DNA of 62,698 bases from a virus (Duplodnaviria > Caudoviricetes), in IMG/VR virus record IMGVR_UViG_3300043403_000045, positions 1 to 62,698 of that record, one strand, 5' to 3'. The translations under genes were made by a program, and so were the position numbers. Shown here piece by piece: positions 2,280 through 54,300 of the stretch. The notes beneath the pieces were generated by a model, which worked only from the letters and a program-made list of their open reading frames with translations, did no database searches and was not told where the DNA came from. The number at the start of each line of letters is the position of its first letter. The first letter of the stretch is position 1.

Positions 2280-2325
2280 TTAAGGAAAAGGTTTGTGCAT
2301 TGTTTCTTTTCAGGACGATTTTATC

Positions 2326-4061: not shown

Positions 4062-4139
4062 AATTTTAATTTTGTTTTTTCTTGAGTTATTTTAAAGCCA
4101 TGCTTTGCTCTGAAAGCAATCTAAATCTTATTTAAATCT

Positions 4140-14027: not shown

Positions 14028-14360
14028 ATGAAAATATATAACCAAATTGTCGACGAATACTTTAAAAGTCATCCCGAAGCGTGGGTAGAAGTGAAGCGGG
14101 CAGACGAAAGCATTCAGAGCGTGATCGCTCGCGAGGAATTAGCGCGACTACATCACACAAACGGCATCGATCCATCTATGTTGGAGTGCGCTCTAATCAA
14201 GCTCAATAAGCCAACAATTCCTGAGCAACTCCACGACGACTATCAGCGCGTATACACGGAACACCGAGCTACTGGCAAACGTGGCTTGGTGCGCGAGATC
14301 ATCGTCGCCAAAACCGCAGACGATTCTTTAGCGAACGACCAAGATCACCCACGCGAATGA
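14028..14360 (+). CDS. Hypothetical protein, distal ORF of cassette array 2
   Basis: Ends ANDQDHPRE inside attC-like site A. Confidence 0.7.
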   Translation: MKIYNQIVDEYFKSHPEAWVEVKRADESIQSVIAREELARLHHTNGIDPSMLECALIKLNKPTIPEQLHDDYQRVYTEHRATGKRGLVREIIVAKTADDSLANDQDHPRE

Positions 14361-14418
14361 AAACTCAAGAACAACAAAAAGAAGCCGAGCCCGCGTTGGG
14401 GGTGGTGGCTGGTTCGGC
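14330..14418 (-). mobile_element. attC-like site A
   Basis: Minus strand: GCCGAAC-cagcc..CCCCAACGCG..loop..CGCGTGGGTG..GTTCGCT. Confidence 0.7.
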
Positions 14419-14641
14419 TGCTCGTGGAACGCCAGCCAGCATCGCAAAGCGACTCCGCTGGCTCTCGCACCGTATGCAATCCGTCGGGGCGGAAATGGAA
14501 TACTACGGAGGCTTTGGAGAAATCGGAGATCACGGGCGCGAAATGCAGGGAGCCGCTAGCATCGCATTTTGCTGGGCAAAGGGCATCGAAGCATCCTTGG
14601 CGAACACCCGCTCTTCAGCTACGCCGAACCATGGACGCTAA
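14357..14641 (+). CDS. Hypothetical cassette protein
   Basis: Starts in the loop of site A and ends in the loop of site B; GC-rich. Confidence 0.7.
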   Translation: MKTQEQQKEAEPALGVVAGSAARGTPASIAKRLRWLSHRMQSVGAEMEYYGGFGEIGDHGREMQGAASIAFCWAKGIEASLANTRSSATPNHGR

Positions 14642-14690
14642 AATTAAAACTGACATCGTAGAGGCGTTGCGCTGTGAGGCTTTGTTCGGC
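14599..14690 (-). mobile_element. attC-like site B
   Basis: Plus strand: GGCGAAC..TCAGCTACGCC..loop..GGCGTTGCGCTG..GTTCGGC. Confidence 0.6.
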
Positions 14691-14877
14691 TCTTCACCGC
14701 TTCGTGATGGGCATCGGTTGGACCGATCTTGGCACCGCTTTCGCGCTGATCGTGGTCGGCAACATCTGCCTCGGCGATGGCCACCTGTGGCGTGGCCTGT
14801 GGTGCTGGATGCTCGGCATCACGGTCTACGTCCGTGCTCCTCGCCCGAACCCGACCAGTGAGCCACGCGGAGAATAA
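14674..14877 (+). CDS. Small membrane cassette protein
   Basis: Two hydrophobic segments; ends PNPTSEPRGE in site C. Start is GTG 14674 or ATG 14707. Confidence 0.6.
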   Translation: MRLCSALHRFVMGIGWTDLGTAFALIVVGNICLGDGHLWRGLWCWMLGITVYVRAPRPNPTSEPRGE

Positions 14878-14931
14878 CCCTATGAAAAAAACACCTGAGA
14901 TTGCCCGCGTTGGCTCTACGGATTGTTCGGC
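14844..14931 (-). mobile_element. attC-like site C
   Basis: GTGAGCCACGCGG pairs with CCGCGT[T]GGCTC[T]AC, leaving two extrahelical bases; bounded by CCCGAAC and GTTCGGC. Confidence 0.75.
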
Positions 14932-15118
14932 CTGCTGGTGGGCAGTTTTCCCATGCGGCTGGAAGTGGGAAATCGGTAGCATGACTCGCGAGAACGAATC
15001 GCCGATTGCGATTTTCAGAATCAAGACGCACGCAACCGACTACAAAAATGTGATGTGGCCCAACCTTGGGGAAGTGCGCCCATGGCCGAACGCCCCTGAT
15101 CAGCCACGCGGAAAATGA
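14882..15118 (+). CDS. Hypothetical cassette protein
   Basis: ATG lies in the loop of site C; ends PNAPDQPRGK in site D. Confidence 0.65.
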   Translation: MKKTPEIARVGSTDCSACWWAVFPCGWKWEIGSMTRENESPIAIFRIKTHATDYKNVMWPNLGEVRPWPNAPDQPRGK

Positions 15119-15175
15119 GCACCGAAAAACAGGACGGAGCCCCGCCCGCGTTGGGCTGTATCGGGTTGGTTAGGC
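15085..15175 (-). mobile_element. attC-like site D
   Basis: GATCAGCCACGCGG pairs with CCGCGT[TG]GGCTG[T]ATC; bounded by GCCGAAC and GTTAGGC. Confidence 0.75.
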
Positions 15176-15336
15176 GGTTTGATTTTGATCGTTGCTGCGC
15201 CCGGATCGCCATCGCTCAACAGCGCATGAATATCGCTCCGACCTGCGACGAAACCGCTTACTGGTGCCGCATCTGGCGCGCCCGCCGTCGCATCTACCGA
15301 ATTGCCTCAAAACGTGAACTCCACCTTTTAGCCTAA
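15115..15336 (+). CDS. Hypothetical Arg-rich cassette protein
   Basis: ATGA coupling in the loop of site D; the stop is the TAA of GCCTAAC in the attI-like element. Confidence 0.6.
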   Translation: MSTEKQDGAPPALGCIGLVRRFDFDRCCARIAIAQQRMNIAPTCDETAYWCRIWRARRRIYRIASKRELHLLA

Positions 15337-15380
15337 CAAGGCTGTTATGACTTCCCCGCCTAAATAAGAAATACTTATGA
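15331..15380 (-). mobile_element. attI-like element, copy 2
   Basis: 47/50 identical to the reverse complement of 31622-31671; minus strand ends in GTTAGGC. Confidence 0.65.
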
Positions 15381-30132: not shown

Positions 30133-30506
30133 AAAAATACTTCCTCACAAATTCCCTCGCGGTTAACCCCGCTTTTTCGGTCAAGCTGGCTGATCTTAAT
30201 TACAATGAAAGCTCTAACCGGATGGATGATCGTGGATCACTTTTCGTCGCTCCGGTTTCGCAAACCGGATGGGATGCTCCGGTTGGACTTCTCGCTCTTT
30301 TTGCGAGCACCAACGGAGATCCGATATACCTTGCTCAGATCGAGGAAGATTCGTTGATCTGGGTGGATGGAAACGACGCAGACGTGTTTCCTGAGCACAT
30401 GCGTTTCCCACTCGAAAACGCTAGCTGGGTTGACGTAGCGAATGACGACGCGGCTGAGCTTTTGGAGTTCGTTCGCAATCAGATTCCGGTCAAACAGGAT
30501 GAGTGA
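30129..30506 (+). CDS. Hypothetical acidic protein
   Basis: 125-aa ORF. Confidence 0.7.
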   Translation: MKKYFLTNSLAVNPAFSVKLADLNYNESSNRMDDRGSLFVAPVSQTGWDAPVGLLALFASTNGDPIYLAQIEEDSLIWVDGNDADVFPEHMRFPLENASWVDVANDDAAELLEFVRNQIPVKQDE

Positions 30507-30657
30507 TCGATGAAGAGAGCACAGAAGACCCTTTCTAAAAGTGGAGAGGGTTGAAACTAGCGCAACCAACTTACTAGAAAAACCAAACAAAAATAACAAA
30601 TAAAACAAAAACCAACATGTGTAATTTCAAAAGTGCGCTTACCGAAAACCAATACCA

Positions 30658-30855
30658 ATGAAATTTAATAAACTTTCAAAGTGCAGCGGTTTTAGGAAAC
30701 CCACTAAAATAAACTCGTCTCTAGGCAAATGGATTGTTTATTTTTACAGAGACGGGTTTTCCTGTATCAAAAAAGAATATGCTCTTTTCTCCCGCAAGAA
30801 AGAGGCAAGTGCCTTTTTCTATGCAAACACTCAAACTAAAAATATCTGTTCATAA
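30658..30855 (+). CDS. Hypothetical basic protein
   Basis: A-rich leader GAAAACCAATACCA-ATG. Confidence 0.55.
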   Translation: MKFNKLSKCSGFRKPTKINSSLGKWIVYFYRDGFSCIKKEYALFSRKKEASAFFYANTQTKNICS

Positions 30856-30939
30856 CTTGGTTGCTGAAACCAATATCTATCTATTAGGCATGCACTTAGT
30901 GCAAATATATTACGACAATTAACTGTTCAAAACAAACGG

Positions 30940-31233
30940 TTAGCCTTTAGTGAGCTTACTAAGCATGTAGATTCCTATAGCACTAGTGGAGAGGGCCAAG
31001 CCTGTAGCGAGGGTTTGGCCTATTCCATTTATGCCTAGCCAAGTGGAGAGTGTTACGGAATGACCTATTCCCACCCAAACGCTCGTGCAGAATAGACACG
31101 AAAATAGATCATTTAGAAATGGCAGTTTGCGCATGCGCTTTAGCAGATTGAGAGGGCCGTTCTCTGTACACAGCATGTAAGAGATTCTGAAAGTGGAGAG
31201 TGCGCAAATAACTAGTGCCAAAGTTTCATTCAT
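30940..31233 (-). CDS. DUF1360-like membrane protein
   Basis: TFRISYML..GP..LFSCLFCTSVWVG with transmembrane helices. Confidence 0.65.
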   Translation of the reverse strand: MNETLALVICALSTFRISYMLCTENGPLNLLKRMRKLPFLNDLFSCLFCTSVWVGIGHSVTLSTWLGINGIGQTLATGLALSTSAIGIYMLSKLTKG

Positions 31234-31289
31234 GGTGCTTATAGGAATGATATTTACTGCACTATTGCAAGTTTATAAGTGGAGACGGC

Positions 31290-31625
31290 TTATTTTATCT
31301 TCCAATAGCCTCTAGCAATAGCCAAAGTAGCGCGCTCAAGCGAGCCCGTGCGCCAGTGTTGGCCGTCGATAATTAAATCCACCTGATTGATACGCCCACG
31401 AAGTGAACGGATGATGCGCCAAGTGTGTATCGAACCATCTGCACGGTAGTTTATCCCCTCGCGAATTAACTCCCCGCGCTTGTCGTTAAGTGCCCGCATG
31501 CGGAGGGTGTGTAAGTCCGGCCCTCGCTGCATGCGTTCCCCTGCTTGCACAGCCTGAGAGCGTCGCCCCCATTCGCGAGCGACTGCGTGGCGTTTGTGCT
31601 TCGGGATATTTTGTAGTGCTATCAT
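31290..31625 (-). CDS. Hypothetical Arg-rich protein
   Basis: Start codon lies within attI-like copy 3. Confidence 0.65.
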   Translation of the reverse strand: MIALQNIPKHKRHAVAREWGRRSQAVQAGERMQRGPDLHTLRMRALNDKRGELIREGINYRADGSIHTWRIIRSLRGRINQVDLIIDGQHWRTGSLERATLAIARGYWKIK

Positions 31626-31671
31626 AAGTATTTCTTATTTTGGCGGGCAAGGCATAACAGCCTTGTTAGGC
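31622..31671 (+). mobile_element. attI-like element, copy 3
   Basis: TCATAAGTATTTCTTATTTTGGCGGGCAAGGCATAACAGCCTT-GTTAGGC. Confidence 0.65.
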
Positions 31672-32267
31672 GAACGAAGATGCCGCATGGCGGTGTTGCC
31701 GTAGCGGGGATGCTTGTCGCGGAAGTAGCTGCCGGGATATTCGAGGCGCACGAAGCCGAATCCGGCTCCGCGCCAGCAAGGATGCACCGACACGATGCGC
31801 GCCTCGACATGCTTCCCCGCGCCGAGGATGCGGAATTGGTCGTCGAGCACGCACATGCCTTTGAGGCCGTGATGGTCGATGTTGTTGCGCACGGAAACGG
31901 AACGCCCAACCAGTCCGCCAGAGCCAACGCCGTCAGCGTCGGGGGCGAGTTCCAAAGTCTGTTCAGCGGCGTGGCTCATCGGAAGCGTTCTCCCGAATGA
32001 AGTCCCCGCGCAGATTTCGCATGGAGATTCCGGCAGCTTTAAGCTGTGCGGGCGTGGCTCATCGGAAGCGTTCTCCCGAATGAAGTCCCCGCGCAGATTT
32101 CGCATGGAGATTCCGGCAGCTTTAAGCTGTGCGGGCGTGCGCTCATTGGTTTCGATCACCCGTTCTTCGCAGTTCACGAAGAGGCGGAAGGTTGTCATTT
32201 GTTCGGGAGATTCCTCGCGGAGTGCGTCCACAAGGGCGTCGATTGCTGTTTGTATTTTCGGTGTCAT
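31635..32267 (-). CDS. Two cassette ORFs (MTPKIQ.. from 32267 and MSHAAE.. from 31979) fused in frame by an 83-bp duplication
   Basis: Removing one repeat unit gives ...RENASDEPRR-stop and a separate downstream ORF ending PNKAVMPCPPK. Confidence 0.6.
   Translation of the reverse strand: MTPKIQTAIDALVDALREESPEQMTTFRLFVNCEERVIETNERTPAQLKAAGISMRNLRGDFIRENASDEPRPHSLKLPESPCEICAGTSFGRTLPMSHAAEQTLELAPDADGVGSGGLVGRSVSVRNNIDHHGLKGMCVLDDQFRILGAGKHVEARIVSVHPCWRGAGFGFVRLEYPGSYFRDKHPRYGNTAMRHLRSPNKAVMPCPPK
31904..31993 (+). mobile_element. attC-like site E
   Basis: GCCCAAC-cagtc..GAGCC[A]ACGCCG..loop..CGGCGTGGCTC..GTTCTCC. Confidence 0.8.
31968..32139 (+). repeat. 83-bp perfect tandem duplication
   Basis: 31968-32050 equals 32051-32133, with GGCGTG microhomology at the junctions. 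Confidence 0.9.
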
Positions 32268-32285
32268 ATCGGTATTTCGGAAGAG

Positions 32286-32413
32286 GGAGAACAAGGCGTG
32301 CGAGCTAGGTGCCCAGAGCCAACAGGCGCGGGCGGCACGTTTTCGATAGGTTTCATAGAGTGCTTTCGTCTGGGGTTTTCTGCCGCGCCTGCGGCTCATG
32401 CACGGTGTTCGGG
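32286..32413 (+). mobile_element. attC-like site F
   Basis: GGAGAAC..GAGCC[A]ACAGGCGCGG..loop..CCGCGCCTGCGGCTC..GTTCGGG. Confidence 0.75.
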
Positions 32414-32694
32414 TGAAGCAGGCGCAGGCGGGCGCGGATTTCGGCCCTGATTGCGTGGCGGGCTGCTGCGGCTCCTTCCATGTATTCACTGCACACGGCT
32501 CCGCCGGGGCGCTCCCCGCAGAAGCGGAGCAGCCTTTTCAGTTCTCCCACAGCTTCACCCGAACCCCCGCCCACACCCAACGCGCCTGACTGGGCCTTCT
32601 GTTCGCGCATGGCGTCCACGCGCGCGGCCTGTGAGGGCGTCAGCATGTCGGGATTCGTCGAGAGGAAATTGAGCAGTTTATTGCGGGCGGTCAT
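32353..32694 (-). CDS. Hypothetical cassette protein
   Basis: MTARNKLLNF... reads through half-site G and ends HPNTVHEPQARQKTPDESTL in site F. Confidence 0.55.
   Translation of the reverse strand: MTARNKLLNFLSTNPDMLTPSQAARVDAMREQKAQSGALGVGGGSGEAVGELKRLLRFCGERPGGAVCSEYMEGAAAARHAIRAEIRARLRLLHPNTVHEPQARQKTPDESTL
32558..32607 (+). mobile_element. attC-like half site G (degenerate)
   Basis: CCCGAAC..CACACCCAACGCG left arm; partner arm not found. Confidence 0.5.
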
Positions 32695-33061
32695 TGGAGG
32701 TAGTCGGTTCTGCGCTCGCGGCGCGTTGGTGATCAGTGTCCACGCTTGCGAGCACTCCCGCGCATTCGGCGAGTTGTTCGGCCAGCTTGTCGCATCGGTC
32801 GGCATAGTGCTTCGCCCACTTCGCTTGATCGTCAGCGTCTGTTTTTGCATTTGTTAGCATCGCCTGCATTGCGCGCATTTGAGCCTCTGAGTAGCCGTCA
32901 TAGAAAGCTTGCGGTTGCTGTGAGGCGTCCGCTGCCTCCACCCATTGGGTTAGCCGAGTTTCGATTTCGCGAGCTACGCGGGCGGGTATCACGTCGCGAT
33001 CCCCGTATCGGTCGGCACTTTTTTCACACGAGTCTGTTATTGGTGTTTTTGATATTGTCAT
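32678..33061 (-). CDS. Hypothetical protein
   Basis: MTISKTPITD..VAREIE; GC-rich. Confidence 0.7.
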   Translation of the reverse strand: MTISKTPITDSCEKSADRYGDRDVIPARVAREIETRLTQWVEAADASQQPQAFYDGYSEAQMRAMQAMLTNAKTDADDQAKWAKHYADRCDKLAEQLAECAGVLASVDTDHQRAASAEPTTSNDRPQ

Positions 33062-33080
33062 AGGTTTAAGATTTTGTGTC

Positions 33081-33506
33081 TCAGGTGCTCGGAGAAACAA
33101 GGCGCCGGTCGAAATTTAGATCCATTTGAGCATCTATTGCTGCGCGGATGTCGCGGGTGTTTCCCGTCTGATTTGCGGGCAGGCCGATGCCCCATCCGCG
33201 CTCTAGCAGCCCATCAAAGTCATACCCCCAATCTTCAAGCCAATCAATGCGCTTCTTATCCTCGCAAAGAACGGCGATTGCTTCATCTGTTTTTAGTCCT
33301 CCTGCATGATTCGTAGCACCTTCGAGCACACGGATGCGCGAAGCTTGGTTTTTGATTTTCTCGCGCATTACAGCGGCCTCGCTTTCAAGCCGAGCTATTT
33401 TATCGTCTTTCGTTGAGGCCAAGACGAATTGGCCGTTTTCCCATGTTCCTTGCATATTGTGTTTTCGTTGAGTTTTTAAGAGGTCGAGCCATTGCCTTAC
33501 AGACAA
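33081..33506 (-). CDS. Hypothetical protein
   Basis: Coiled coil, EDKKRIDWLE..RAAIDA; true start may be 33455. Confidence 0.65.
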   Translation of the reverse strand: MSVRQWLDLLKTQRKHNMQGTWENGQFVLASTKDDKIARLESEAAVMREKIKNQASRIRVLEGATNHAGGLKTDEAIAVLCEDKKRIDWLEDWGYDFDGLLERGWGIGLPANQTGNTRDIRAAIDAQMDLNFDRRLVSPST

Positions 33507-33542
33507 CTCACTTCGCTCGTGTCTGAAGAGCGTTTGTTAGGC
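33484..33542 (+). mobile_element. attC-like site H (degenerate left box)
   Basis: CAGAC[A]AC..GTGTCTG..GTTAGGC. Confidence 0.55.
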
Positions 33543-33817
33543 CATGCTTGCTCGTGCATCGCGTTAACGAAGGCGGCGAGTGCTTCCGCGCCATCGTCGC
33601 CGAGATAGAACATATCGCCGTCGCCCGAGTGCGTTTCGAGCGTAATTGGGTTTGTCCCGTCTGCGGCGATTATGGCCGCGACATGCGGACGCTTGTAGTG
33701 CGGTTTCATTGCGTGAAATTCGATTTTCCACGGTGCGGGAAATCCTTCCGTCAGCGCAGCAAAGAGCACTGAACCGGGCGTATACCCAACGCGGGAAGTG
33801 TCAGTTGTACTTTCCAT
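33497..33817 (-). CDS. Hypothetical cassette protein
   Basis: MESTTDTSRVGYTPGSV (attC-arm-encoded leader, half site 33768-33795) to ..WPNKRSSDTSEVSCL. Confidence 0.7.
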   Translation of the reverse strand: MESTTDTSRVGYTPGSVLFAALTEGFPAPWKIEFHAMKPHYKRPHVAAIIAADGTNPITLETHSGDGDMFYLGDDGAEALAAFVNAMHEQAWPNKRSSDTSEVSCL

Positions 33818-33887
33818 TATTTTTTGATCCCTAAACCCTGCACATCCTCTTATTTTCTTCAATAAAATAATTAAAACAAATTGTAAG

Positions 33888-36800
33888 CTATTTACTAACA
33901 GCCTCTTCTATCGCTAATCTCTTTGTGGTCTTGCCTTCAGCTTTGTTCTCATACTTTTGAATAAAAGCTGGCTTTTGGCGGATTTTCGCAGCATGCCACG
34001 CATCTGCTTTAGAGTATATAGACTTGAGGATGAGAACTTTAGCTTGTGGCTTGAGCATCTCCCACTTAGGATTACTAGTCAATCCAGCTAATGCCTTACG
34101 ATATAGTATTCCGCGTTCTATTGCGACTGTTTCTGCGTCTTTAGCATCTAGCTTAAAAGTTTGCCCAAGTAAATCAACCTTAGTGCTAGGAATAGAAGGA
34201 TATGCGTCAGGATTACCGCCACTTTCCTTATACGCATTCATGACGGAAATTTCCCACGGCTCTTTGTTTAGAACAGCTGATTTAAAGGGGTCGGCAAAAG
34301 CTGCGTAATAATCGTTCATTCCGCGACTTGCGTCTATTTTCCTGCCAAACATGTCCCTTGTCCAAACAATGTCTTTTTCGTTTAACCTTTGTGTCTTGTA
34401 CTTCACTAGGTTTTCAAACGTTTTAACTAGAGAATCCTTGTCGCGTATCTGAGGCACATCACCGTAGTGAATAGCCGCAAAATCATCTAGTGTGCGAGGC
34501 AATACAGGAGCTACCGCTGCACGCATCGTATTGTAAGCCCATCGCCCTATCTTATCGGGGTCATCACTGTTCGCTAGAGTCTCAAGTGCCGCCGACGCAT
34601 TCATGAGCGGAGATAGACCAGTAGCCACTGCCGGAGAGCCTGCCAGCATGTTCCACGCAAATTCCATATTGTCCTTGCCTACTAATGGCCTTGGTTTTTT
34701 GGGATCTGCCTTGCTCATTGATTCAGCTTTAATTGCAAGTGCCAGTACGCCGCCCGCCGTTGTAAGCTGCGGATAATCAATAACCACATCCCCACTCTTG
34801 AATCGAAGATCCGCCTTATCCAATGACCTCAAGTATCTACTTAATGCCGATTTATTTAGTTTTCCCGGCCCTCCAATTTCCTGATAAGCGATGCTGCGTT
34901 CTTTCGGATCTTTTACGCTAGGCTCAGACGCCAAGCCGTTTCTGTAAAGCCAAGCCCCTGCACCAATTAGGCTTGTGCCAACTATCATCTCAGCAATAAC
35001 ACGCTCAGCCATTGCCGTATTCCCCTCAGCGACATAAGCCATAGCTTTAGTTAATCCCCACGGAGGAAAGCCCATAGTCATAAGACGATCTATGGAATTA
35101 AATGGAACAGACATAAAGGGAAGTTGTGTTGTCTGTAATGCCACCAGTAATTGATCGCCTTGCTTGAACCATTGCTCTCCAAATTTGCCATCGGCATTGA
35201 CAGCCATCTTCTTTAATTGCCTGCGGAAAACGCCAACTCCATCCTGTGCAGCTTTAGTAAGCAGGCCGTTATCCTGCATTACCGTTCTTGCCGCCACCGC
35301 ACTCGCCGCTTCAACCGCATCGGTAGGAGGAGCTACCATGAATTGGTTAAGTGCTTCCCCCTCAAGTCCACGCAGCTTTCCTTGCTCCAAAAGAAGCCTA
35401 TACTCACGCCCACCACGGACAAAGTTGTCAGATAGATTAATTAGCCGCTGCATTGGAGCCACCCCTAGACCTGTCAATCCCCTCATTAAACGCTGCGCCC
35501 TATCACCTAGAGACACATACTCCACGTTGTATTTCTCGCCCGTCACCGGATCAATTATTGTCTCCCGCTTAACGGCCATTGACTGGCCAGCACCAAATCC
35601 CTGCTTGATGTCCTCCAATGGCTTTGTGCCAACTGACGATGCTATGCCCTCCGCGAATGAACGCTCATTAGGGCCGTTTACAAGCTCTGCTAAATTTCGC
35701 GCAAAAAGAGATGCAGACCGCTTGATTTCACCCGCACTAGGCAGGGGGTTTAGCGACATGACCGCCCGCTTCCCACCTGTGACCTTAGAGCGTGCGGCAT
35801 CTACTACAGTCGTAATACTGTCTAGCATGTTATCTATAGCGTACTGCCCAACATTGGCCGTTGCTGCATACGTGATAGTGCGTGCACCTAGTAATCCGGT
35901 CTTGATTGGGCCAGTAATTGCATCACCCCATCCCTTAGGTAACAGTGATGCCTCTTTAAGTGCGGCGTCTCGCTCGGCTTTACCTAGATTAAGTTCAGCG
36001 TCCTTAAATGCTTGAATAGATGCGTCGTCGAAATTCTCGTAAACCTGCCTTTTGGCTTGAGCAAGCGCATCTTCCGCAGCGATTCGTTTCTGAGCTAGAG
36101 CGGTTACAATGCCTCGATCTTGCTGAGATAGATTGCGGCCATTTATAGCGTGAATCTGGTCATCTAGTACCTTGGCATAGTCCTCTGGCGACTTAAATAA
36201 CTTAGCTATGTTAAGCACCGTCGCTGCATCGCTAAAATTATTCGTAAAATTAATGCCCAGTTTCGCGGATTCGACTGCCTCGCCGGACGCTACTAGCTTA
36301 TTGCGTATAATAGCATTGGCCACAAGTCGTTCGTTTTCACTAAGACTCGGACTAGCCGCTATATTGCGCACTTCGTCTAGGGTTAAGGGTTCCCACTCAT
36401 CGCGCAATTTAGAAATCTTGAATTTCTGACCGATAATATCTCCTGAATCGGCCATTGTCTTGCGCATGCCGATAGGATTATCGGTGTCGCGAATCATCTT
36501 CTCTGCGGTCTGCTTAATGTATTCTCCTGATTCAGTTTCAGGTAAGAAGACCGACTCTGCTGGCTCAACCTTGTTCACTCTGCGCATAGCGTTGAGTCGC
36601 TTGCGTGCCTCAGCTATTACCGATAGTGGATTGATTATTGCACCAGCTTCCGCGCCTCCTATAAATGGACTGCCTCTGCCTGCAATCAAGTCATCCGCCA
36701 TCTTATTAATCTGGTCTTGCGAATATCCACGCTCCTTAAGAACAGCATCATCTGCCGTTATACCTCTTGGATTTTCAGGCGTTTTGTCTATCTGGAAATT

Positions 36801-38876
36801 ATTGACCGTTTTCTCAATTCCATCTTTGGTTTTGTAGGTATCCCGATAAAGAAATTCTATGTCTTTAGGGTATTCCTTGGGCGTGGCAACGCTTAGTTCA
36901 TCTTGGAGTGAAGCGCGTGGTTGTTCTGGCAATGGCCTTGGATCAACTACAGCCCCATTAGATTCCAATGTTTGGCGCGATACGGTGGAGTTTTTGGGGT
37001 AACCAGCAAAGTCTTCTGTTAGGTTATACAACTCAATGTCTGGAATGCCTTCGCTTGGGAAGCCTTCTTGGATGCCTAAGAACACAGCGGGAGCTGGTTT
37101 TTTTCTTTCAATGGCTGGTACTATGTCCTGAATCATTTCAGGCGTTTCAGGCATACTGTGCTCGACGTCACCAATAAATTCACGCGCCCTAGGTTTCGCT
37201 AGCATTTTAGCAGATGCTTTACCAAGTCCAACGAGTGCAGGTGCTCCGACCATACCTAGTCCACCGTATTTCAATGCGTTGTTTAACCGCTCTTCCGGTG
37301 TATCTCCCTGTGTTGCACCATAAGCTGATCCGCCAATGCCGCCTGCCGCGCCTGATCCTACGATAGACATCAAGCCCGGATCAATGCGTCCGTATTCATC
37401 GTACATGCGTTGTGCTTGAGGCGATAGTTCAGGGAATTTCTCTTGCAGCTCGGGAAAGGCGATTTCTTCGGCTTGTATATCCGCCAATTCACGCTGTTGA
37501 TTTAATGCTTTGCGTTCTTCAAGTGCTTTAGAGATAGACTGCTCTTGAGCCAATTGCTCTTTGAGTAGATCGGCACCCGCCTGACTGCGCCTGATTTCTG
37601 TTGCTGTATCTGCCTCGGCAATCTGTTGCTTGATAGTCTTATTAACCTCTTGTAGTTCAATTGCTTTCTGCACCTCTATCGAAACATCTTTCTGGTTTAA
37701 TGCCTGTTCGAAAACATTGGCCGACTGCTGCGCATTACTAGGAGCAGTAACTTCATTCAAACTAGCTTGCAGTGCGTTAGCATCGCTACCTGCATTTGCG
37801 GCATTCTGTGTGGCCACATTAGCCATAGGAGGTGGAGCCTTGGACTTATTAAGGATCTCCATTCCTTTGTTTATACCTGCCTCCGCTCCTCGACCTGCGA
37901 CACCAAAGGCGGTCGTTAATCCAAAATTCGCAAGATCGTCCTGACCAAATTGAACTCCTCTTCCGTGTACTATGTCGTCTAATTTCCTACCAGCAACATT
38001 AGTCCCGCCAATCAATGCCCCCTCTTTTGCTCCTTGTATAAGCGATCGAGCAATACCTGAACCCACTTTAAGGTTATTCATGCCAATCGGCGCAGTGAGT
38101 CCAGCAACACCTAATTCAATTGGATTTAAATCACGTCCTTCTATTTTCTCAGCCAATGCTTCGCCACCTACACCAGCTGCACCTATAGCCAAAAGACTAG
38201 CACCTCCCGTAAACGGGGCCGCAGCTACTCCAATGACGGGTAACGTGCGTGCGCCAGCCGCACCAACGGTCTGACTTGCCGCCTTCAATGGTTTTCCATA
38301 CGTATCTACATCTTTAGCGATACCACCAAATCCTTCACGAGCCGATTGCAGATCGTTAGCTGCGAACCCTTGCGCTAGACGAGCTGGTAAATTGCGAACA
38401 ATCTGGCCTGCTGTTGCCACATTATCAAAGAAACCAGCTTTTTCGTCAGGATCAATTTGCTGATAACTAATGCCACCCGTTTTCTTAATTCTCCCCAGCA
38501 CAGGATGAACCATTTCATCCCCAAGCGGTATCTTTTCCCAATTAGCCATTACCCTAGCTCGCTCTTCTTCCGGCTTAACCATACCTTTGAATCCGCCAAA
38601 GTATGAAACATCTTGCTTCATCTCAGGCAGTTCATCTATGCGATGAGTAGGCAAGTCGGGATTACTGATAGGTGCATTACGGCCCGACAAAGAATCAATT
38701 AACGCTTGCGTAGTTTTCTGCGAATCATTCCACGCTCCTTGCATTTGTTGGCCTGCTTTACTTGCAGTATTTTGCAAGCCTAAAGCCTCATCAATATCGG
38801 CCTCAGTCGGAGGCGTATTACCCTCAAGGGTTAAGATGATTTTACCACTTGCATCTTGTATATCATACTTAGGCAT
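33888..38876 (-). CDS. Large internal virion/DNA ejection protein
   Basis: 1662 aa, Ala/Gly-rich and helical; last of three ejection-like genes. Confidence 0.65.
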   Translation of the reverse strand: MPKYDIQDASGKIILTLEGNTPPTEADIDEALGLQNTASKAGQQMQGAWNDSQKTTQALIDSLSGRNAPISNPDLPTHRIDELPEMKQDVSYFGGFKGMVKPEEERARVMANWEKIPLGDEMVHPVLGRIKKTGGISYQQIDPDEKAGFFDNVATAGQIVRNLPARLAQGFAANDLQSAREGFGGIAKDVDTYGKPLKAASQTVGAAGARTLPVIGVAAAPFTGGASLLAIGAAGVGGEALAEKIEGRDLNPIELGVAGLTAPIGMNNLKVGSGIARSLIQGAKEGALIGGTNVAGRKLDDIVHGRGVQFGQDDLANFGLTTAFGVAGRGAEAGINKGMEILNKSKAPPPMANVATQNAANAGSDANALQASLNEVTAPSNAQQSANVFEQALNQKDVSIEVQKAIELQEVNKTIKQQIAEADTATEIRRSQAGADLLKEQLAQEQSISKALEERKALNQQRELADIQAEEIAFPELQEKFPELSPQAQRMYDEYGRIDPGLMSIVGSGAAGGIGGSAYGATQGDTPEERLNNALKYGGLGMVGAPALVGLGKASAKMLAKPRAREFIGDVEHSMPETPEMIQDIVPAIERKKPAPAVFLGIQEGFPSEGIPDIELYNLTEDFAGYPKNSTVSRQTLESNGAVVDPRPLPEQPRASLQDELSVATPKEYPKDIEFLYRDTYKTKDGIEKTVNNFQIDKTPENPRGITADDAVLKERGYSQDQINKMADDLIAGRGSPFIGGAEAGAIINPLSVIAEARKRLNAMRRVNKVEPAESVFLPETESGEYIKQTAEKMIRDTDNPIGMRKTMADSGDIIGQKFKISKLRDEWEPLTLDEVRNIAASPSLSENERLVANAIIRNKLVASGEAVESAKLGINFTNNFSDAATVLNIAKLFKSPEDYAKVLDDQIHAINGRNLSQQDRGIVTALAQKRIAAEDALAQAKRQVYENFDDASIQAFKDAELNLGKAERDAALKEASLLPKGWGDAITGPIKTGLLGARTITYAATANVGQYAIDNMLDSITTVVDAARSKVTGGKRAVMSLNPLPSAGEIKRSASLFARNLAELVNGPNERSFAEGIASSVGTKPLEDIKQGFGAGQSMAVKRETIIDPVTGEKYNVEYVSLGDRAQRLMRGLTGLGVAPMQRLINLSDNFVRGGREYRLLLEQGKLRGLEGEALNQFMVAPPTDAVEAASAVAARTVMQDNGLLTKAAQDGVGVFRRQLKKMAVNADGKFGEQWFKQGDQLLVALQTTQLPFMSVPFNSIDRLMTMGFPPWGLTKAMAYVAEGNTAMAERVIAEMIVGTSLIGAGAWLYRNGLASEPSVKDPKERSIAYQEIGGPGKLNKSALSRYLRSLDKADLRFKSGDVVIDYPQLTTAGGVLALAIKAESMSKADPKKPRPLVGKDNMEFAWNMLAGSPAVATGLSPLMNASAALETLANSDDPDKIGRWAYNTMRAAVAPVLPRTLDDFAAIHYGDVPQIRDKDSLVKTFENLVKYKTQRLNEKDIVWTRDMFGRKIDASRGMNDYYAAFADPFKSAVLNKEPWEISVMNAYKESGGNPDAYPSIPSTKVDLLGQTFKLDAKDAETVAIERGILYRKALAGLTSNPKWEMLKPQAKVLILKSIYSKADAWHAAKIRQKPAFIQKYENKAEGKTTKRLAIEEAVSK

Positions 38877-52395: not shown

Positions 52396-52608
52396 TTATG
52401 AAGAAAAAGGAGGATTACTGTCCTTCTTCTTTGATTCTCTTCGCCACTTCCAAATCAGAAATGCTAAACCAATGCAACCACTTAAAAAAGTAAGTGCTCC
52501 ATTGATGTTCTGCCAAGACAGAACGAAAAGAGTGGAACTTGGTGCCGCAGCAAATGCGTAATCTACTGGTTTAAGATATGTGAGTAACGCCTTTAGATGT
52601 GTTGCCAT
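52396..52608 (-). CDS. Holin-like small membrane protein
   Basis: Hydrophobic segments and a basic C-terminus WKWRRESKKK. Confidence 0.55.
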   Translation of the reverse strand: MATHLKALLTYLKPVDYAFAAAPSSTLFVLSWQNINGALTFLSGCIGLAFLIWKWRRESKKKDSNPPFSS

Positions 52609-53389
52609 TGTTGTTTTCTTGGATTTCCGAAATTCTATTCACAATGTATTTACGGTCTATTTTATTTTTCAATAACTTAATGTAATCCTTGTGCGATTGA
52701 TCCATGTTGGCTTCATTGTACTCCTTGATTTCAGTGGCCACTCTTGGATTATCAACCTTTAGTTCCTCAATAGACTGTACGGATCGCAGCATGGCCCCTT
52801 CAGCAACTGCGTGCTTGGCCTTTAGCTCTCTCGCCTCCTTGTCTCGGTTATAGAGCCACCATATGAATGCCGCACCGAGCACCGCTAGTACGTAGTTCAT
52901 TAGCTCTTCATTCCCTGCCAAATACCATAGCAGAAAAGATGCACCACCCGCAATGGCTGACACTATTGCTGGGCCTATTTGCCTGAGATAAACGAGAATG
53001 CCAGCAACGGCTAAAGAACCTAGAGCGATATACAGCAAGACTCGCCTCTCCGAGTTCTGCTCTTTCTGCATTTGAACTCGAACATCGGGCTTAGCAGGTG
53101 GCGAAATAACTGCTAGTGTTCGCTCAATGTCTTCTACGATCTTAGCTGGCTGCGTATAGGTTATTACTTCTCTTTTGGTTTCCGGCTTTGTTTCTGTGCC
53201 AGAGACTGTTTCGATAACATAGGTAGAGCCTGCCGGAATTTCGGTAATTTTCTTGGATTTATTTTCTGTGATTGTTGATTGTTTTTCTGCATTTTGTGGG
53301 GGTTCTATTTTTTTCTTGCTTAGCGCAATTCCTGCCGATGCACATCCATTTAGTAAAACTATCAAAAAAAGGATTAGCATGTGCCGCAT
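52571..53389 (-). CDS. Membrane lipoprotein (possible lysis/spanin-like)
   Basis: Lipobox LNGC and three C-terminal transmembrane helices. Confidence 0.6.
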   Translation of the reverse strand: MRHMLILFLIVLLNGCASAGIALSKKKIEPPQNAEKQSTITENKSKKITEIPAGSTYVIETVSGTETKPETKREVITYTQPAKIVEDIERTLAVISPPAKPDVRVQMQKEQNSERRVLLYIALGSLAVAGILVYLRQIGPAIVSAIAGGASFLLWYLAGNEELMNYVLAVLGAAFIWWLYNRDKEARELKAKHAVAEGAMLRSVQSIEELKVDNPRVATEIKEYNEANMDQSHKDYIKLLKNKIDRKYIVNRISEIQENNNGNTSKGVTHIS

Positions 53390-53394
53390 ACAAA

Positions 53395-54300
53395 TCACGC
53401 CTCGGTGAGCACTATTATCAGCCCATCTCCACCAGTTCCGGCGTTTCCTCCGGTCGTACCTGCACCACCGCCACCGCCACCGCAACCCAATCGTCCATTG
53501 CCACCTACTCCGCCGACACTTGTATTGCTTGCACCGCCGCCTGATCCACCAGTAGCAACGAGTGGTCTTTCGGAGTACCAGCCACCATTGCCGCTGTTAC
53601 TGCCCGCTGCGCCACCTGCAATGGTGGGGATAATACCCGCGCCTGTGATTGCGCCACCAGCAAAGTCTGCCGATGTTGTTCCCCCGCCACCTGCTCCGCC
53701 AGTGACTATATTTACTAATGCGGTCACGCTGCCACCAGCCGCACCTGTTTGCGCGCCACCAACTGCACCAGATTGACCAGCAATAGCTATCCAGCTAATT
53801 GCTAGAGAGGATAATACTGCTGATGAATTTACTGCGATAGTGCTACCCGCACCTGCCGTGCCGCCTGCTGACCCTGTACCTGATCCAGCCGATCCTGCAT
53901 CCGCTGCTCCCGAGATAAGCAGTAAATCTGCCGCCGTGATAGATTGTCGAATAGAGACATAGGCCCTACCACCCGCACCAGCCGCACCCGAAATTGCTCC
54001 ACCACGAGGAACCTGAAACCATAATACCTCTGGTAAGGTAGAAGCAAGGAAGGATGCGCGAACAATGGCGCCACTGCCACCACCGCCACCGCCACCGCCT
54101 GCCGCTGCTGCTGCTCGTGTGAACCCAGTACCACCACCTCCTCCGGCTCCTAGCAAAAAGAAATGAACTAATCGCGCACCAGCGGGTTTCTGCCATAGCT
54201 GCCAATTCTTAGTTGCAGTGCCCGCTCCCGGCGTACCCATTGCGTAAAACCGCTGCTCATAGGAGGCAATGTGAGGAGACTGGAAAATTCCGGTATTCAT
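53395..54300 (-). CDS. Glycine-rich virion protein
   Basis: WQKPAGARLV..LGAGGGGG..GGDGLIIV glycine-rich domain. Confidence 0.75.
   Translation of the reverse strand: MNTGIFQSPHIASYEQRFYAMGTPGAGTATKNWQLWQKPAGARLVHFFLLGAGGGGGTGFTRAAAAAGGGGGGGGSGAIVRASFLASTLPEVLWFQVPRGGAISGAAGAGGRAYVSIRQSITAADLLLISGAADAGSAGSGTGSAGGTAGAGSTIAVNSSAVLSSLAISWIAIAGQSGAVGGAQTGAAGGSVTALVNIVTGGAGGGGTTSADFAGGAITGAGIIPTIAGGAAGSNSGNGGWYSERPLVATGGSGGGASNTSVGGVGGNGRLGCGGGGGGAGTTGGNAGTGGDGLIIVLTEA

What the first reader, a model, noticed from the sequence alone, without database searches (positions are those of the whole stretch)
31622..33817. Second cassette array on the opposite strand with self-complementary cassette ends (array 3)
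Seen: mirror-image organisation, with an attI-like element (GTTAGGC at 31665) followed by attC-like sites E, F, half-site G, H and a half site at 33768. Cassette ends match themselves rather than their neighbours: GTTAGGC/GCCCAAC, GTTCTCCC (31987)/GGGAGAAC (32285), and a 13-bp match GTTCGGGTGAAGC (32407)/GCTTCACCCGAAC (32552). Sites become more degenerate with distance from the attI-like end. Inference: cassettes were added sequentially at attI, so the distal ones are older.
Basis: partly seen in the sequence, partly recalled or inferred. Interest (0 to 1): 0.88.

Follow-up and report, generated by a model that had tools for sequence, protein, structure and literature searches.

The report
Integron cassette array in a phage
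This stretch of a complete phage genome is a genuine integron-style array of small swappable gene cassettes that ends at a conserved docking site, although the phage has no integrase of its own and its cassette genes read in the opposite direction to those of bacterial integrons.

Summary
The window is a complete 62.7-kb phage genome with terminal repeats and three GC-rich islands. Each island ends in the same ~45-nt element.

A covariance model built only from 16 attC sites of Verrucomicrobiota (mostly Opitutaceae) integron arrays finds six sites in the phage. All six lie in islands 2 and 3, and two lie in the reported region: 31902-31995 (E 1e-10) and 32297-32415 (E 0.03). Cassette ends pair with themselves; the 13-bp pair at 32407/32552 is exact.

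In metagenomic relatives, homology to the element and its downstream gene starts exactly at the AAC|AAG crossover: 64-93% identity downstream against 22-38% upstream. Different cassettes lie upstream. Cassette proteins B and G match relatives only over the cassette body.

The phage has no integrase, so each island is a CALIN abutting an attI-like site, presumably loaded in trans.

Unlike the bacterial arrays of this attC family, the phage ORFs lie on the attC bottom strand and start inside the hairpin loop (6 of 6 sites).

Phage CALINs were published in 2023, so this is a new variant of a known kind. The inference that distal cassettes are older is plausible but unproven, and two of the five named sites are not significant.

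The parts
31622..31665 (+). attI-like element in top-strand reading. It ends in the G of G|TTAGGC, with the crossover between 31665 and 31666. It is one of three copies in the genome (the others are about 2586-2638 and 15337-15380 on the other strand). On the - strand it holds the last 10 codons and the stop of ORF B and runs up to the ATG of ORF A.
   Evidence: Searches show three copies against none expected by chance. Searches show it conserved in front of ORF A homologs in metagenome loci L228 and L229 (64-93% identity), with unrelated sequence beyond the crossover (22-38%). One search shows a core resembling AAC|AAGTGATTAT next to IntI genes.
31666..31987 (+). Cassette 1, which carries the body of ORF B. 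It starts with TTAGGC. Its own R'' is GCCCAAC at 31904-31910.
   Evidence: The ORF B homologs P0002 (87% identity) and P0003 (67%) match only from just after the R'' remnant to the ..RSPN at the crossover.
31902..31995 (-). attC site 1, with the bottom strand on the - strand. Top-strand parts: R'' 31904-31910, L'' 31920-31932, loop 31933-31966, L' 31967-31977, R' GTTCTCC 31987-31993. One extra base (T on the bottom strand) lies on the arm opposite the AAC triplet. The L box carries CGCCG/CGGCG where the family consensus has CGCGG/CCGCG.
   Evidence: 40.8 bits, E 1.3e-10, with a model built from bacterial sites only.
31968..32133 (.). Perfect 83-bp tandem duplication (31968-32050 and 32051-32133). 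Each copy starts in the L' arm of attC site 1. It shifts the frame by 2 and fuses ORF C to ORF B, giving the 284-aa ORF 31635-32489. It is bounded by near-identical GGCGTG(C)GCTCAT words.
   Evidence: (family D1, 100% identity).
31988..32407 (+). Cassette 2, including the duplication. It carries ORF C, which starts at 32267 on the - strand. It begins with TTCTCCC, and its own R'' is GGGAGAAC at 32285-32292, an exact 8-bp self-match.
32285..32415 (-). attC site 2, with a long loop. Top-strand parts: R'' 32286-32292, L'' about 32316-32337, L' 32382-32397, R' GTTCGGG 32407-32413. The loop holds the stop codon of ORF D.
   Evidence: 32297-32415, 15.3 bits, E 0.03; the model placed the outer arm differently from my reading. 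(DNA fold) pairs both boxes, but at z = -1.0, which is not better than shuffles.
32408..32601 (+). Cassette 3, which carries the C-terminal two thirds of ORF D. Its ends are the exact 13-bp inverted pair GTTCGGGTGAAGC (32407) and GCTTCACCCGAAC (32552).
   Evidence: pair I3; run of 13 against 5 for the neighbouring arm.
32552..32607 (+). Degenerate short site: R'' CCCGAAC 32558-32564, L''-like CACCCAACGCGCC 32574-32586, R'-like GTTCGCG 32601-32607. No matching L' arm.
   Evidence: Read. Not found by R1, and no hairpin of that kind in the fold.
32608..33493 (-). Distal part with ORF D (N-terminal part), ORF E (32678-33061) and ORF F (33081-33455). No significant site. The start of ORF E sits in a stretch resembling the A-rich attC loops (..TTAAACCTATGAC..).
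   Evidence: ORF F has 9 homologs besides itself, the best at 53% identity over 90% of its length.
33494..33542 (+). Candidate short site H: GCCTTAC ... GTTAGGC, 49 nt. Not significant.
   Evidence: 33481-33544, 8.5 bits, E 5.2; weak fold, z = -0.18.
33497..33817 (-). ORF G (106 aa), in the most distal cassette. Its first 16 codons are the loop-like leader plus the L''/R'' remnants.
   Evidence: 25 homolog clusters. The matches start at query residues 6-25 in 22 of 25 rows and end at 86-98 in 23, that is, over the cassette body.
33768..33800 (+). Terminal half site: R''-like ACTGAAC 33768-33774 and L''-like CCCAACGCGGG 33785-33795. The other arm is missing. AT-rich phage DNA follows, up to the 1662-aa gene that ends at 33888.
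31290..31625 (-). ORF A (111 aa), the gene directly behind the attI-like element, where intI sits in integrons. It is a conserved phage gene of unknown function, not a recombinase by any test here.
   Evidence: no family; 23 proteins at E<=0.001, one of them a 69-aa piece of the window's own ORF A; homologs lie behind attC arrays in L179, L223, L132 and L228-L233; model pLDDT 81, no PDB match at E<=0.001.

Best explanation
Region 31622-33817 is an integron-type gene-cassette array without an integrase (a CALIN) in a complete phage genome. It is one of three such arrays in that genome.

Each cassette is a small ORF plus an attC hairpin site with these parts:
- an R box, RYYYAAC/GTTRRRY;
- an unpaired spacer of 8-10 nt;
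- an 11-bp L box with a bulged T;
- an A-rich loop.

The sites belong to the attC family of Verrucomicrobiota (Opitutaceae) integrons.

The array abuts a conserved ~45-nt double-stranded attI-like site that lies directly in front of a conserved phage gene (ORF A).

Inferred mechanism: an IntI-type integron integrase supplied in trans recombines the folded bottom strand of circular cassettes with this site at G|TT. The source would be the host chromosome or a co-resident phage; integron-bearing viral contigs with the same attC family exist. New cassettes would therefore enter next to the site, and cassettes turn over between related phages.

Shown here:
- homology of the sites;
- self-complementary cassette ends;
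- a sharp homology break at the crossover in relatives;
- cassette-limited protein homology;
- absence of an integrase.

Inferred: who catalyses the reaction, and whether it still happens in this phage.

A special feature is that the ORFs lie on the attC bottom strand. They are co-directional with the flanking phage genes, so they would be expressed by phage read-through. Their start codon lies in the hairpin loop, and their stop lies in the next loop or in the attI-like site.

The confidence given (0.7) is for the whole statement, including loading in trans at the element. That the region is a real attC cassette array of this family I hold at about 0.9.
For: 1. A pattern scan of genomes found real arrays of the same site type in Opitutaceae and Verrucomicrobiota MAG loci.
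 - In L078 the array ends at an attI followed by a tyrosine-recombinase gene remnant.
 - In L097 and L176 the adjacent gene's best family is TIGR02249, integron integrase (160 and 212.7 bits).

2. Model R1, built from 16 bacterial sites, has an L box paired in 99.4% of cells and 4 pairs with changes on both sides. It hits the phage at these places:
 - 15083-15177 (56.4 bits)
 - 14842-14933 (56.0)
 - 14328-14420 (48.4)
 - 31902-31995 (40.8)
 - 14597-14692 (22.2)
 - 32297-32415 (15.3)
 Nothing else in 62.7 kb scored below E=3. The same model finds 9, 35, 2 and 33 sites in four Opitutaceae-type genomes.

3. Own-end complementarity beats the neighbouring arm in 5 of 7 cassettes. In IntI-bearing arrays the last cassette pairs with the AAC at attI over 7-12 bp.

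4. Anchored at AAC|AAGG, the three phage copies and relatives L228 and L229 are 64-93% identical over the 42 nt downstream and 22-38% over the 60 nt upstream (alignment). R1 finds attC sites upstream of ORF A homologs in L229, L230, L232, L233, L132 and L223.

5. Protein homology is limited to the cassette bodies.
 - ORF B homologs P0002 and P0003 align only over the body.
 - P0002 ends ..SPNK*. That fits the AAC AAG TGA seen in IntI-linked attI sites; this last link is my inference.
 - ORF G matches are likewise bounded.

6. A DNA search of 401 Opitutaceae-family genomes matched in 15. All matches were pieces of 27-62 nt: 12 lie in the arms of attC sites 1 and 2 and 3 lie inside ORF G.

7. 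GC content is 54-60% in the island against about 43% in the genome.

8. The strand rule comes from Nivina et al. 2016 (PMC5027507, passages read): in the bottom strand the AAC triplet is in R', and the extrahelical bases (a G and a conserved T) lie on the opposite arm. The phage sites fit this on the ORF strand.
Against: - No integrase is present. PF00589 gave 0 matches at E<=1, and tblastn with two IntI proteins gave nothing better than E 1.3.
- No recombination event was observed. The one attempt to look for cassette-less or rearranged forms in sequencing runs failed.
- The unpaired spacers are 8-10 nt, not the usual 5-6. The bulged G and T, where both occur, are 3 bp apart, not 6.
The distal 1.2 kb has no clear site.
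- ORF A is itself GC-rich (54%), so array 3 together with ORF A could have come in as one block.
- The similarity of the element to IntI-linked attI sites is short (about 10-20 nt) and was judged by eye and by one alignment.
- DNA folds of single sites are not better than shuffles, except 14838-14938 (z = -2.6).
- The TIGR02249 scores of the related IntI proteins are below the curated cut-off of 265 bits.
Confidence: 0.7

Rival explanations
1. Fossil array. The cassettes, the attI remnant and ORF A were copied as a block from an integron-bearing, GC-rich phage by homologous or illegitimate recombination. The element then spread to two more places in the genome. Nothing recombines at these sites in this phage today.
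For: - ORF A behind the element is GC-rich (54%). Its homologs lie in GC-rich phage contigs next to arrays (L179, about 60% GC).
- The genome has no integrase.
- The distal sites are degenerate.
- Qi et al. 2023 (section 3.4 read) also propose illegitimate or homologous recombination for phage CALINs.
Against: - The three copies of the element carry three different cassette sets, and each break falls exactly at the crossover.
- Relatives L228 and L229 have other cassettes at the same site.
- The genes behind the elements of arrays 1 and 2 are ordinary low-GC phage genes (0.39 and 0.42).
- The four sites nearest the elements are intact.
Confidence: 0.22
2. The hairpins act mainly in RNA: as translation-initiation platforms with the start codon in the loop, or as processing or coupling signals between small phage ORFs. 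Their likeness to attC sites would then reflect ancestry only.
For: - In 6 of 6 phage sites an ORF starts at an ATG inside the site, on the strand that carries the hairpin, and runs at least 40 codons beyond it. In bacterial arrays of the same family this holds for 5 of 23 and 0 of 9 sites.
- The loops are A-rich, and the upstream ORFs stop in them.
- No Shine-Dalgarno-like sequence is visible before these starts (read by eye).
Against: - RNA function does not explain the self-complementary cassette ends, the homology break at the crossover, or the IntI genes next to such arrays in viral contigs.
- The two roles are not exclusive, so this is more an addition than a rival.
Confidence: 0.1
3. 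Chance inverted repeats in GC-rich DNA, or a chimeric metagenome assembly that joined integron DNA to a phage.
For: - 8-bp inverted matches are expected by chance.
- The GC jump is abrupt.
- The genome is a metagenome assembly.
Against: - R1 E-values reach 1e-10 to 1e-15, and only in the islands.
- All three islands are flanked on both sides by phage genes in a genome with terminal repeats rated 100% complete.
- Two runs hold all sampled words of 30500-35000, though either may be the source sample.
- Independent contigs L228 and L229 show the same junction of array, element and ORF A.
Confidence: 0.02

Closest known systems
CALINs (clusters of attC sites lacking an integrase) in virulent and temperate phages: Qi, Rajabal, Ghaly, Tetu and Gillings, Front Microbiol 2023, PMC9892861 (abstract and section 3.4 read; supplements not seen)
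   Same: Arrays of at least two attC sites with small cassettes in phage genomes that have no integrase. That paper showed such phage attC sites are recombined by IntI1 into attI1, and it noted GTTRRRY-type motifs at the array borders.
   Different: - Here there are three arrays in one genome, each ending at the same ~45-nt attI-like element.
- The element is fixed in front of a conserved phage gene in several relatives.
- The cassette ORFs lie on the attC bottom strand and start in the loop.
- The host lineage is probably Verrucomicrobiota.
- I could not check their supplementary tables for similar cases.
Integrons in Verrucomicrobia are mentioned by Cury et al. 2016, PMC4889954 (passages read).
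   Same: The same attC family (R1 scores of 40-107 bits), the same R and L boxes with a bulged T, and the same geometry of attI and intI relative to the sites.
   Different: - In the bacterial arrays the ORFs are on the top strand (21 of 23 and 9 of 9 sites) and the loops are GC-rich without start codons.
- The phage arrays are the reverse (canonical top-strand ORF at 1 of 6 sites).
- The phage lacks intI.
Integron-bearing viral contigs of IMG/VR found here (L176, L156, L151, L215)
   Same: The same attC family. Many sites have an ATG in the loop, with ORFs running towards attI. The attI core is AAC|AAGTGATTA...
   Different: They carry an IntI-type gene directly behind attI. The phage has ORF A or other phage genes there. 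They are GC-rich throughout (55-65%), whereas the phage backbone is about 43% GC.
attG sites (genomic secondary sites for cassette insertion): bioRxiv 10.1101/2022.09.11.507474 (passages read)
   Same: Double-stranded non-attI sites with a GWT core, into which IntI inserts cassettes outside an integron platform.
   Different: attG sites are very many and weakly defined. Here one long conserved element is reused three times and is conserved in relatives, which is more like a true attI.
Inverted integron-integrase group (Treponema and others), as cited in Cury et al. 2016 (passage read)
   Same: intI and the cassette genes point the same way.
   Different: In that group the integrase is inverted relative to the attC sites. 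Here the attC/attI/intI geometry is canonical in the relatives, and it is the ORFs that are inverted relative to the attC sites. My recollection that intI lies upstream of the cassettes in Treponema was not checked.

Membership tests
integron attC recombination site | Inverse core and core: 5'-RYYYAAC-3' and 5'-GTTRRRY-3' at the two ends, complementary to each other (Nivina 2016) | tested here: met
   GCCCAAC/GTTCTCC (site 1), GGAGAAC/GTTCGGG (site 2), GCCTAAC and GTTAGGC at the array end. Several deviate from the R/Y pattern at one or more positions (for example GCCGAAC), as do the bacterial family members.
integron attC recombination site | An L box that pairs imperfectly, with extrahelical bases (a conserved T, usually also a G) on the arm opposite the AAC triplet in the recombined (bottom) strand | tested here: met
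   The bulged T is present in the model's consensus and in the phage hits. An extra G is also present at 15083-15177. The spacing between G and T is 3 bp rather than the 6 bp reported as needed by IntI1.
integron attC recombination site | Unpaired central spacer of about 5-6 nt on each arm | tested here: inconclusive
   The spacers are 8-10 nt in the phage and in the bacterial sites next to IntI: a family-specific departure.
integron attC recombination site | Length 57-141 bp with a variable terminal structure | tested here: met
   92-119 nt for the six hits.
integron attC recombination site | Recognised by the curated attC covariance model (IntegronFinder) | not testable with these tools
   That model is not available here and Rfam was not searched. 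A model of my own, built from bacterial sites of the same family, stood in for it.
integron attC recombination site | Recombined as folded single strand by an integron integrase | not testable with these tools
   Needs a conjugation or recombination assay.
gene cassette | The start of the linear cassette (TTRRRY..) is complementary to its own R'' rather than to the neighbour's, a trace of the circular form | tested here: met
   5 of 7 cassettes; 13-bp and 8-bp exact matches in this array.
complete integron | An intI gene next to attI | tested here: not met
   PF00589: 0 matches at E<=1, with 14 of 14 control genomes positive. tblastn with IntI of L097 and L176: best E 1.3.
complete integron | Cassette ORFs on the attC top strand, reading away from attI and Pc | tested here: not met
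   ORFs lie on the bottom strand at 6 of 6 sites. These ORFs are real genes by homology.
complete integron | An attI site at the proximal end of the array | tested here: inconclusive
   There is a conserved element with the break at G|TT. Its core resembles the AAC|AAGTGATTAT of IntI-linked sites, through the intermediates L231 and L232. Function was not tested.
CALIN | At least two attC sites in a cluster with no integron integrase nearby | tested here: met
   Two sites in this array and four in array 2; no integrase in the whole genome.

The most novel reading that the evidence does not exclude
A lineage of freshwater phages keeps integrase-less integron platforms: an attI-type site fixed in front of a conserved phage gene (the ORF A family), multiplied to three places in this genome. 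Integron integrases of co-resident phages or of the Opitutaceae-type host load these platforms in trans.

Their cassettes would form a distinct phage-type class. They are coded on the attC bottom strand, with the start codon in the hairpin loop and the stop in the next loop or in attI. The recombination site would thus double as the translation start. Phage read-through transcription would both express the cassettes and expose the recombinogenic strand as the non-template strand.
Probability: 0.35. Interest if true: 0.8.

Novelty: new variant of a known kind. Interest (0 to 1): 0.63.

Why it matters
Integrons are known as bacterial devices, and phage-borne attC clusters were reported only recently and from few genomes. 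This phage suggests that such arrays can be a regular, multi-copy accessory-gene system of a phage lineage.

- **Docking site.** The site is defined, conserved, and occupied by different cassettes in different relatives.
- **Gene exchange.** The arrays use the attC family of the presumed host clade. That points to direct gene traffic between bacterial chromosomal integrons, integron-bearing phages and integrase-less phages.
- **Coding strand.** The reversed coding strand, with starts inside the hairpin loop, is a testable departure from the textbook rule that cassettes are inserted so as to be read from Pc.
- **Cassette genes.** They are small and of unknown function, which makes them candidates for phage-host conflict genes.

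Tried and rejected
- **Cultured-phage relatives.** megablast, blastn and tblastn against INPHARED found nothing.
- **IMG/VR relatives by single proteins.** The 1662-aa protein gave one weak partial hit. The helicase gave none.
- **Exact 18-nt core of the element in IMG/VR.** Two chance hits, both inside a large coding gene.
- **The element against the 77 viral loci.** Only 11-13-nt chance matches.
- **Families.** Pfam and PHROGs found no family for any cassette ORF, for ORF A, or for the genes behind the other two elements. The one exception is a weak DUF1360/phrog_781 hit for 30940-31233.
- **ORF A.** The AlphaFold model has pLDDT 81. Foldseek against PDB gave no match at E<=0.001. I therefore dropped my guess, based on its position before terminase genes in L179 and L228, that ORF A is a small terminase or an accessory recombination protein.
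- **P0003 in 401 Opitutaceae-family genomes.** Not found in those searched, so its genomic context stays unknown.
- **ORF B alignment in JGI metagenome contigs.** No relative found.
- **GC by codon position.** It did not settle the coding strand; homology did.
- **Promoter and terminator scan of 31200-34000.** Not above shuffles. The match inside the element scores 9 of 12.
- **DNA folding of ten candidate sites.** Only one was clearly better than shuffles, so I do not use folding energy as evidence.
- **Other ideas considered and dropped.**
 - A diversity-generating retroelement, IS200/IS605-type ends, or REP-like repeats: no matching genes or architecture.
 - T4-type promoter/stem-loop mobile cassettes (recalled, not tested) remain only an analogy.
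- **Literature.** Four full-text searches listed no paper describing phage cassette arrays with ORFs on the attC bottom strand or an attI-like site repeated in one phage. That is what these searches listed, not proof of absence. Supplementary tables of Qi et al. 2023 were not available.

Full report
**What the window is.** The window is a whole virus record of 62,698 bp with direct terminal repeats, rated 100% complete. Its genes form a + block (to about 30.9 kb) and a - block. They include a DnaB-like helicase and a methyltransferase domain, but most have no PHROG family. No cultured-phage relative was found.

The genome is about 43% GC. Three islands stand out at 50-60% GC: about 2293-2622 (+), 14028-15380 (+) and 31290-33862 (-). 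The finding concerns the third. A fourth GC-rich stretch (53.4-54.2 kb) is only a glycine-rich repetitive gene.

**Checking the observation.** The 13-bp inverted pair 32407/32552 is reported by the repeat finder as a 16-nt pair at 94% (I3). The 8-bp pair is exact but would not be significant alone.

The stretch 31622-31674 recurs at 15328-15380 (92%) and 2581-2638 (79%) on the other strand. A 26-nt core of it has three copies, against none in 100 shuffles. In gene orientation each copy lies at the downstream end of a GC-rich island and runs up to, or near, the start codon of the next gene.

**What the repeats inside the islands are.** At the ORF junctions of islands 2 and 3 I saw the following module, read on the ORF strand:
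- (G)CCGAAC;
- about 9 nt;
- GAGCCACGCGG;
- an A-rich loop holding the stop of the upstream ORF and the ATG of the next;
- CCGCGTTGGCTC, with one extra T;
- about 8 nt;
- GTTCGGC or GTTAGGC.

The motif CGCGTTGG occurs 7 times, against 1.87 expected. Five of the 7 lie on the ORF strand of islands 2 and 3, a sixth lies in island 3 on the other strand, and the seventh is at 1317. It is read in more than one frame, so it is a nucleic-acid signal and not a protein motif.

Most were single chance hits in GC-rich genomes. Loci from Opitutaceae and Verrucomicrobiota MAGs, however, carry whole arrays of such sites, flanked by RYYYAAC and GTTRRRY.
- In L078 and L125 the sites separate ORFs that lie on the other strand and begin a few bases after the GTTRRRY. 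The L078 array ends at GCCTAAC|AGTGTTATTC, followed by a remnant of a tyrosine-recombinase gene.
- In L097 (a Ca. Didemnitutus MAG) two sites are followed by a gene whose best NCBIfam family is TIGR02249, integron integrase. It scores 160 bits, below the cut-off of 265.

These are therefore integron attC sites.

**An independent model.** I aligned 16 sites from bacterial loci only (A2). The 11-bp L box with a bulged T is paired in 99.4% of cells. Four pairs show changes on both sides, and the covariation score was reached by 0 of 500 shuffles. These sequences are related, so the shuffle count is not a probability.

The covariance model R1 built from A2 was run over the whole window with filters off. 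It found four strong sites and two weaker ones:

| Place | Strand | Bits | E-value |
|---|---|---|---|
| 15083-15177 | + | 56.4 | 9.9e-16 |
| 14842-14933 | + | 56.0 | 1.4e-15 |
| 14328-14420 | + | 48.4 | 4.1e-13 |
| 31902-31995 | - | 40.8 | 1.3e-10 |
| 14597-14692 | + | 22.2 | 1.8e-4 |
| 32297-32415 | - | 15.3 | 0.03 |

The only other match under E=3 is the reverse strand of 14842-14933 (17.6 bits). It is negative for island 1, for the degenerate site at 32552-32607, for site H (8.5 bits, E 5.2) and for the terminal half site. The same model finds 9, 35, 2 and 33 sites in the four genomes behind L097, L078, L019 and L110.

**Which strand is which.** Nivina et al. 2016 (PMC5027507; passages read) state that in the recombined bottom strand the AAC triplet lies in R' (5'-RYYYAAC). 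The extrahelical bases lie on the opposite arm near L'': a G, and further in a conserved T.

In the phage, the strand that reads RYYYAAC ... L ... loop ... L(+T, once +G) ... GTTRRRY is the strand of the ORFs. It is also the strand on which R1 matches, and R1 was built from the bacterial strand opposite to the bacterial ORFs. The crossover G|TT lies at 31665/31666, 31987/31988 and 32407/32408.

The unpaired spacers are 8-10 nt instead of the usual 5-6. That holds for the bacterial members too.

**Cassette ends.** With these boundaries I compared each cassette's first 13 nt (from GTT) in two ways: with the reverse complement of its own last 13 nt, and with the arm of the same hybrid site. The own-end run is longer in 5 of 7 cassettes, shorter in one, and tied in one. 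In array 3 the runs are 13 against 5, 8 against 4, and 3 against 3. In the IntI-bearing arrays found later, the last cassette pairs with the AAC at attI over 7-12 bp.

**Does homology stop at the crossover?** Yes, on four lines of evidence.
1. The three copies of the element in the phage are 79-93% identical over the 42 nt after AAC| and 22-25% over the 60 nt before the 7-nt core.
2. ORF A, the gene behind the element of array 3, returned 23 proteins at E<=0.001, one of them a piece of the window's own ORF A. Six metagenome loci also encode relatives.
 - In L228 and L229 (ORF A 71-72% identical) the element is conserved, at 64-88% identity to the phage copies and 81% to each other. The sequence upstream of AAC| is unrelated, at 22-38%.
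 - R1 finds attC sites upstream in L229, L230, L232, L233, L132 and L223.
3. ORF B of cassette 1 has two relatives, P0002 (87%) and P0003 (67%, from a 1.16-Mb contig). The alignment covers only the cassette body, from just after the R'' remnant to ..RSPN at the crossover. P0003 has a different N-terminus, and P0002 stops right after ..SPNK. The matches of ORF G likewise begin after the 16-codon leader and end before the next crossover.
4. A DNA search of 401 Opitutaceae-family genomes with the array matched in 15, only with pieces of 27-62 nt. Twelve lie in the arms of attC sites 1 and 2 and three lie inside ORF G.

I could not obtain full-length close relatives to see whole arrays.

**The attI-like element.** In viral contigs that carry an IntI-type gene behind such arrays, the sequence after the last AAC reads as follows:
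- L156, L151 and L215: AAGTGATTA..
- L176: AGTGATTCTCC..
- L097: CCTGATTCTGC..

The IntI start follows 30-60 nt later. These IntI-type genes were found by tblastn, and the L176 protein scores 212.7 bits on TIGR02249.

The ORF A-linked sites of L231 and L232 read AAGTGATTATGCCTTCCCG. Those of the phage, L228 and L229 read AAGG(C/T)(T/G)G(T/A)TATGC(C/T)TT... The phage element therefore looks like a diverged member of the same attI family, but this rests on a short similarity.

The phage itself has no tyrosine recombinase. A sigma-70-type promoter match inside the element is no better than chance.

**The unusual part: coding strand.** The ORFs co-directional with the phage genes are real.
- ORF B has relatives at 87% and 67% identity.
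- ORF F has 9 homologs besides itself, the best at 53% over 90% of its length.
- ORF G has 25 homolog clusters.

They lie on the attC bottom strand. I counted two things: ORFs that start at an ATG inside a site and run at least 40 codons beyond it on the bottom strand, and canonical top-strand ORFs starting just after R'.

| Array set | Bottom-strand ORF | Top-strand ORF |
|---|---|---|
| This phage | 6 of 6 | 1 of 6 |
| Bacterial G002 | 5 of 23 | 21 of 23 |
| Bacterial G004 | 0 of 9 | 9 of 9 |
| G001 loci | 4 of 5 | 3 of 5 |
| IMG/VR sites | 19 of 34 | 23 of 34 |

In GC-rich DNA both strands are often open, so these counts are crude.

An IMG/VR scan found the site type in 17 of 77 pattern-matching loci, with 44 R1 hits at E<=1e-3. 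Many of their loops carry an ATG. In L176 the ORFs, attI and intI all point the same way. In the IntI-linked attI sites of L156, L151 and L215 the words AAC AAG TGA supply a stop codon for such ORFs (frame read by eye).

**Mechanism proposed.**
- *Shown.* A CALIN of an Opitutaceae-type attC family sits at a conserved boundary element, and the cassettes differ between copies and between relatives.
- *Inferred.* Cassettes are exchanged by an integron integrase acting in trans, and they enter at the element. The nearest cassette would then be the newest. The ORFs would be expressed by phage read-through, and the loop would present the start codon.
- *Age gradient.* R1 scores fall with distance in array 3 (40.8, 15.3, none) but not in array 2 (56.4, 56.0, 22.2, 48.4), so the gradient is only suggested.
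- *Host.* An Opitutaceae host is suggested by the attC family and by ORF A relatives in a Didemnitutus MAG (L132). The 43% GC of the phage does not fit well, so the host remains open.
- *Habitat.* Two runs holding the stretch are labelled freshwater and freshwater sediment, but either may be the source sample.

**Comparison with what is known.** Qi et al. [quoted passage not shown] They also showed that IntI1 recombines five of six tested attC sites from three virulent phages. The kind is therefore known.

Three features did not appear in the four literature searches I ran:
- a long attI-like element present three times in one phage and conserved before a phage gene in relatives;
- the consistent bottom-strand coding with starts in the loop;
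- the link to Verrucomicrobiota integrons.

Their supplementary tables, which I could not see, might hold similar cases. I rate this a new variant of a known kind, of solid interest to integron and phage-genome specialists but not categorically new.

**Limits.**
- No recombination was observed.
- The read-level test failed on a filter.
- R1 is my own model with rough E-values.
- The distal 1.2 kb of the array has no significant site.
- Cassette functions are unknown.

Noticed in passing
window 31968-32133: A perfect 83-bp tandem duplication. Each copy starts in the L' arm of attC site 1. It is bounded by near-identical words GGCGTG(C)GCTCAT. It fuses ORF C in frame to ORF B, giving the 284-aa ORF 31635-32489. 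It could be replication slippage at the hairpin, a population variant or an assembly artefact.
   Followed up: partly
window 31290-31625 (-); L179 2779-3075; L228 164-523; L229, L231, L232, L233, L223, L132: The ORF A family (about 110 aa; three helices, four strands, one helix; no Pfam, PHROG or PDB match) sits directly behind the attI-like end of attC arrays in several unrelated phage contigs. In L179 and L228 it lies upstream of terminase-like genes. It is either a conserved platform gene or simply a hot spot for arrays.
   Followed up: partly
window 14028-15380 (+) and 2293-2622 (+): Two further arrays end in the same element. Array 2 has four R1 sites and about five small ORFs, one of which looks like a two-helix membrane peptide (14707-14877). 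Island 1 has a single GC-rich ORF and no detectable site.
   Followed up: partly
L176 1401-2372, L156 about 1651-2589, L151 about 4121-5017, L215 about 1811-2761: IMG/VR viral contigs of 27-84 kb carry IntI-type genes directly behind arrays of this attC family, with ORFs, attI and intI all co-directional. By eye, the last cassette of L215 reads like an N6/N4 DNA methyltransferase (an ..SPPYW.. motif).
   Followed up: partly
L097 2084-2174 against window 14842-14933: A site in a Ca. Didemnitutus MAG is nearly identical to a phage site, including the loop and the first about 13 codons of the ORF (MKNTPEIARVGST.. against MKKTPEIARVGST..). The two sequences diverge completely right after GTTCGGC.
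   Followed up: yes
window 33497-33817 (ORF G): The roughly 75-residue core of ORF G also matches a 3484-aa protein in 36 stretches (P0038) and a 2084-aa protein in 21 (P0060). The cassette therefore encodes a single copy of a domain that is a repeat unit in giant proteins.
   Followed up: no
window 53400-54200 (-): A GC-rich stretch that is not an array. It is glycine- and alanine-rich repetitive coding sequence inside or next to the genes at 52571-54137, perhaps a fibre protein.
   Followed up: no
window 33888-38876 (-): A 1662-aa protein lies directly upstream of the array. It has no relative among cultured phages and only one weak partial relative in IMG/VR.
   Followed up: partly
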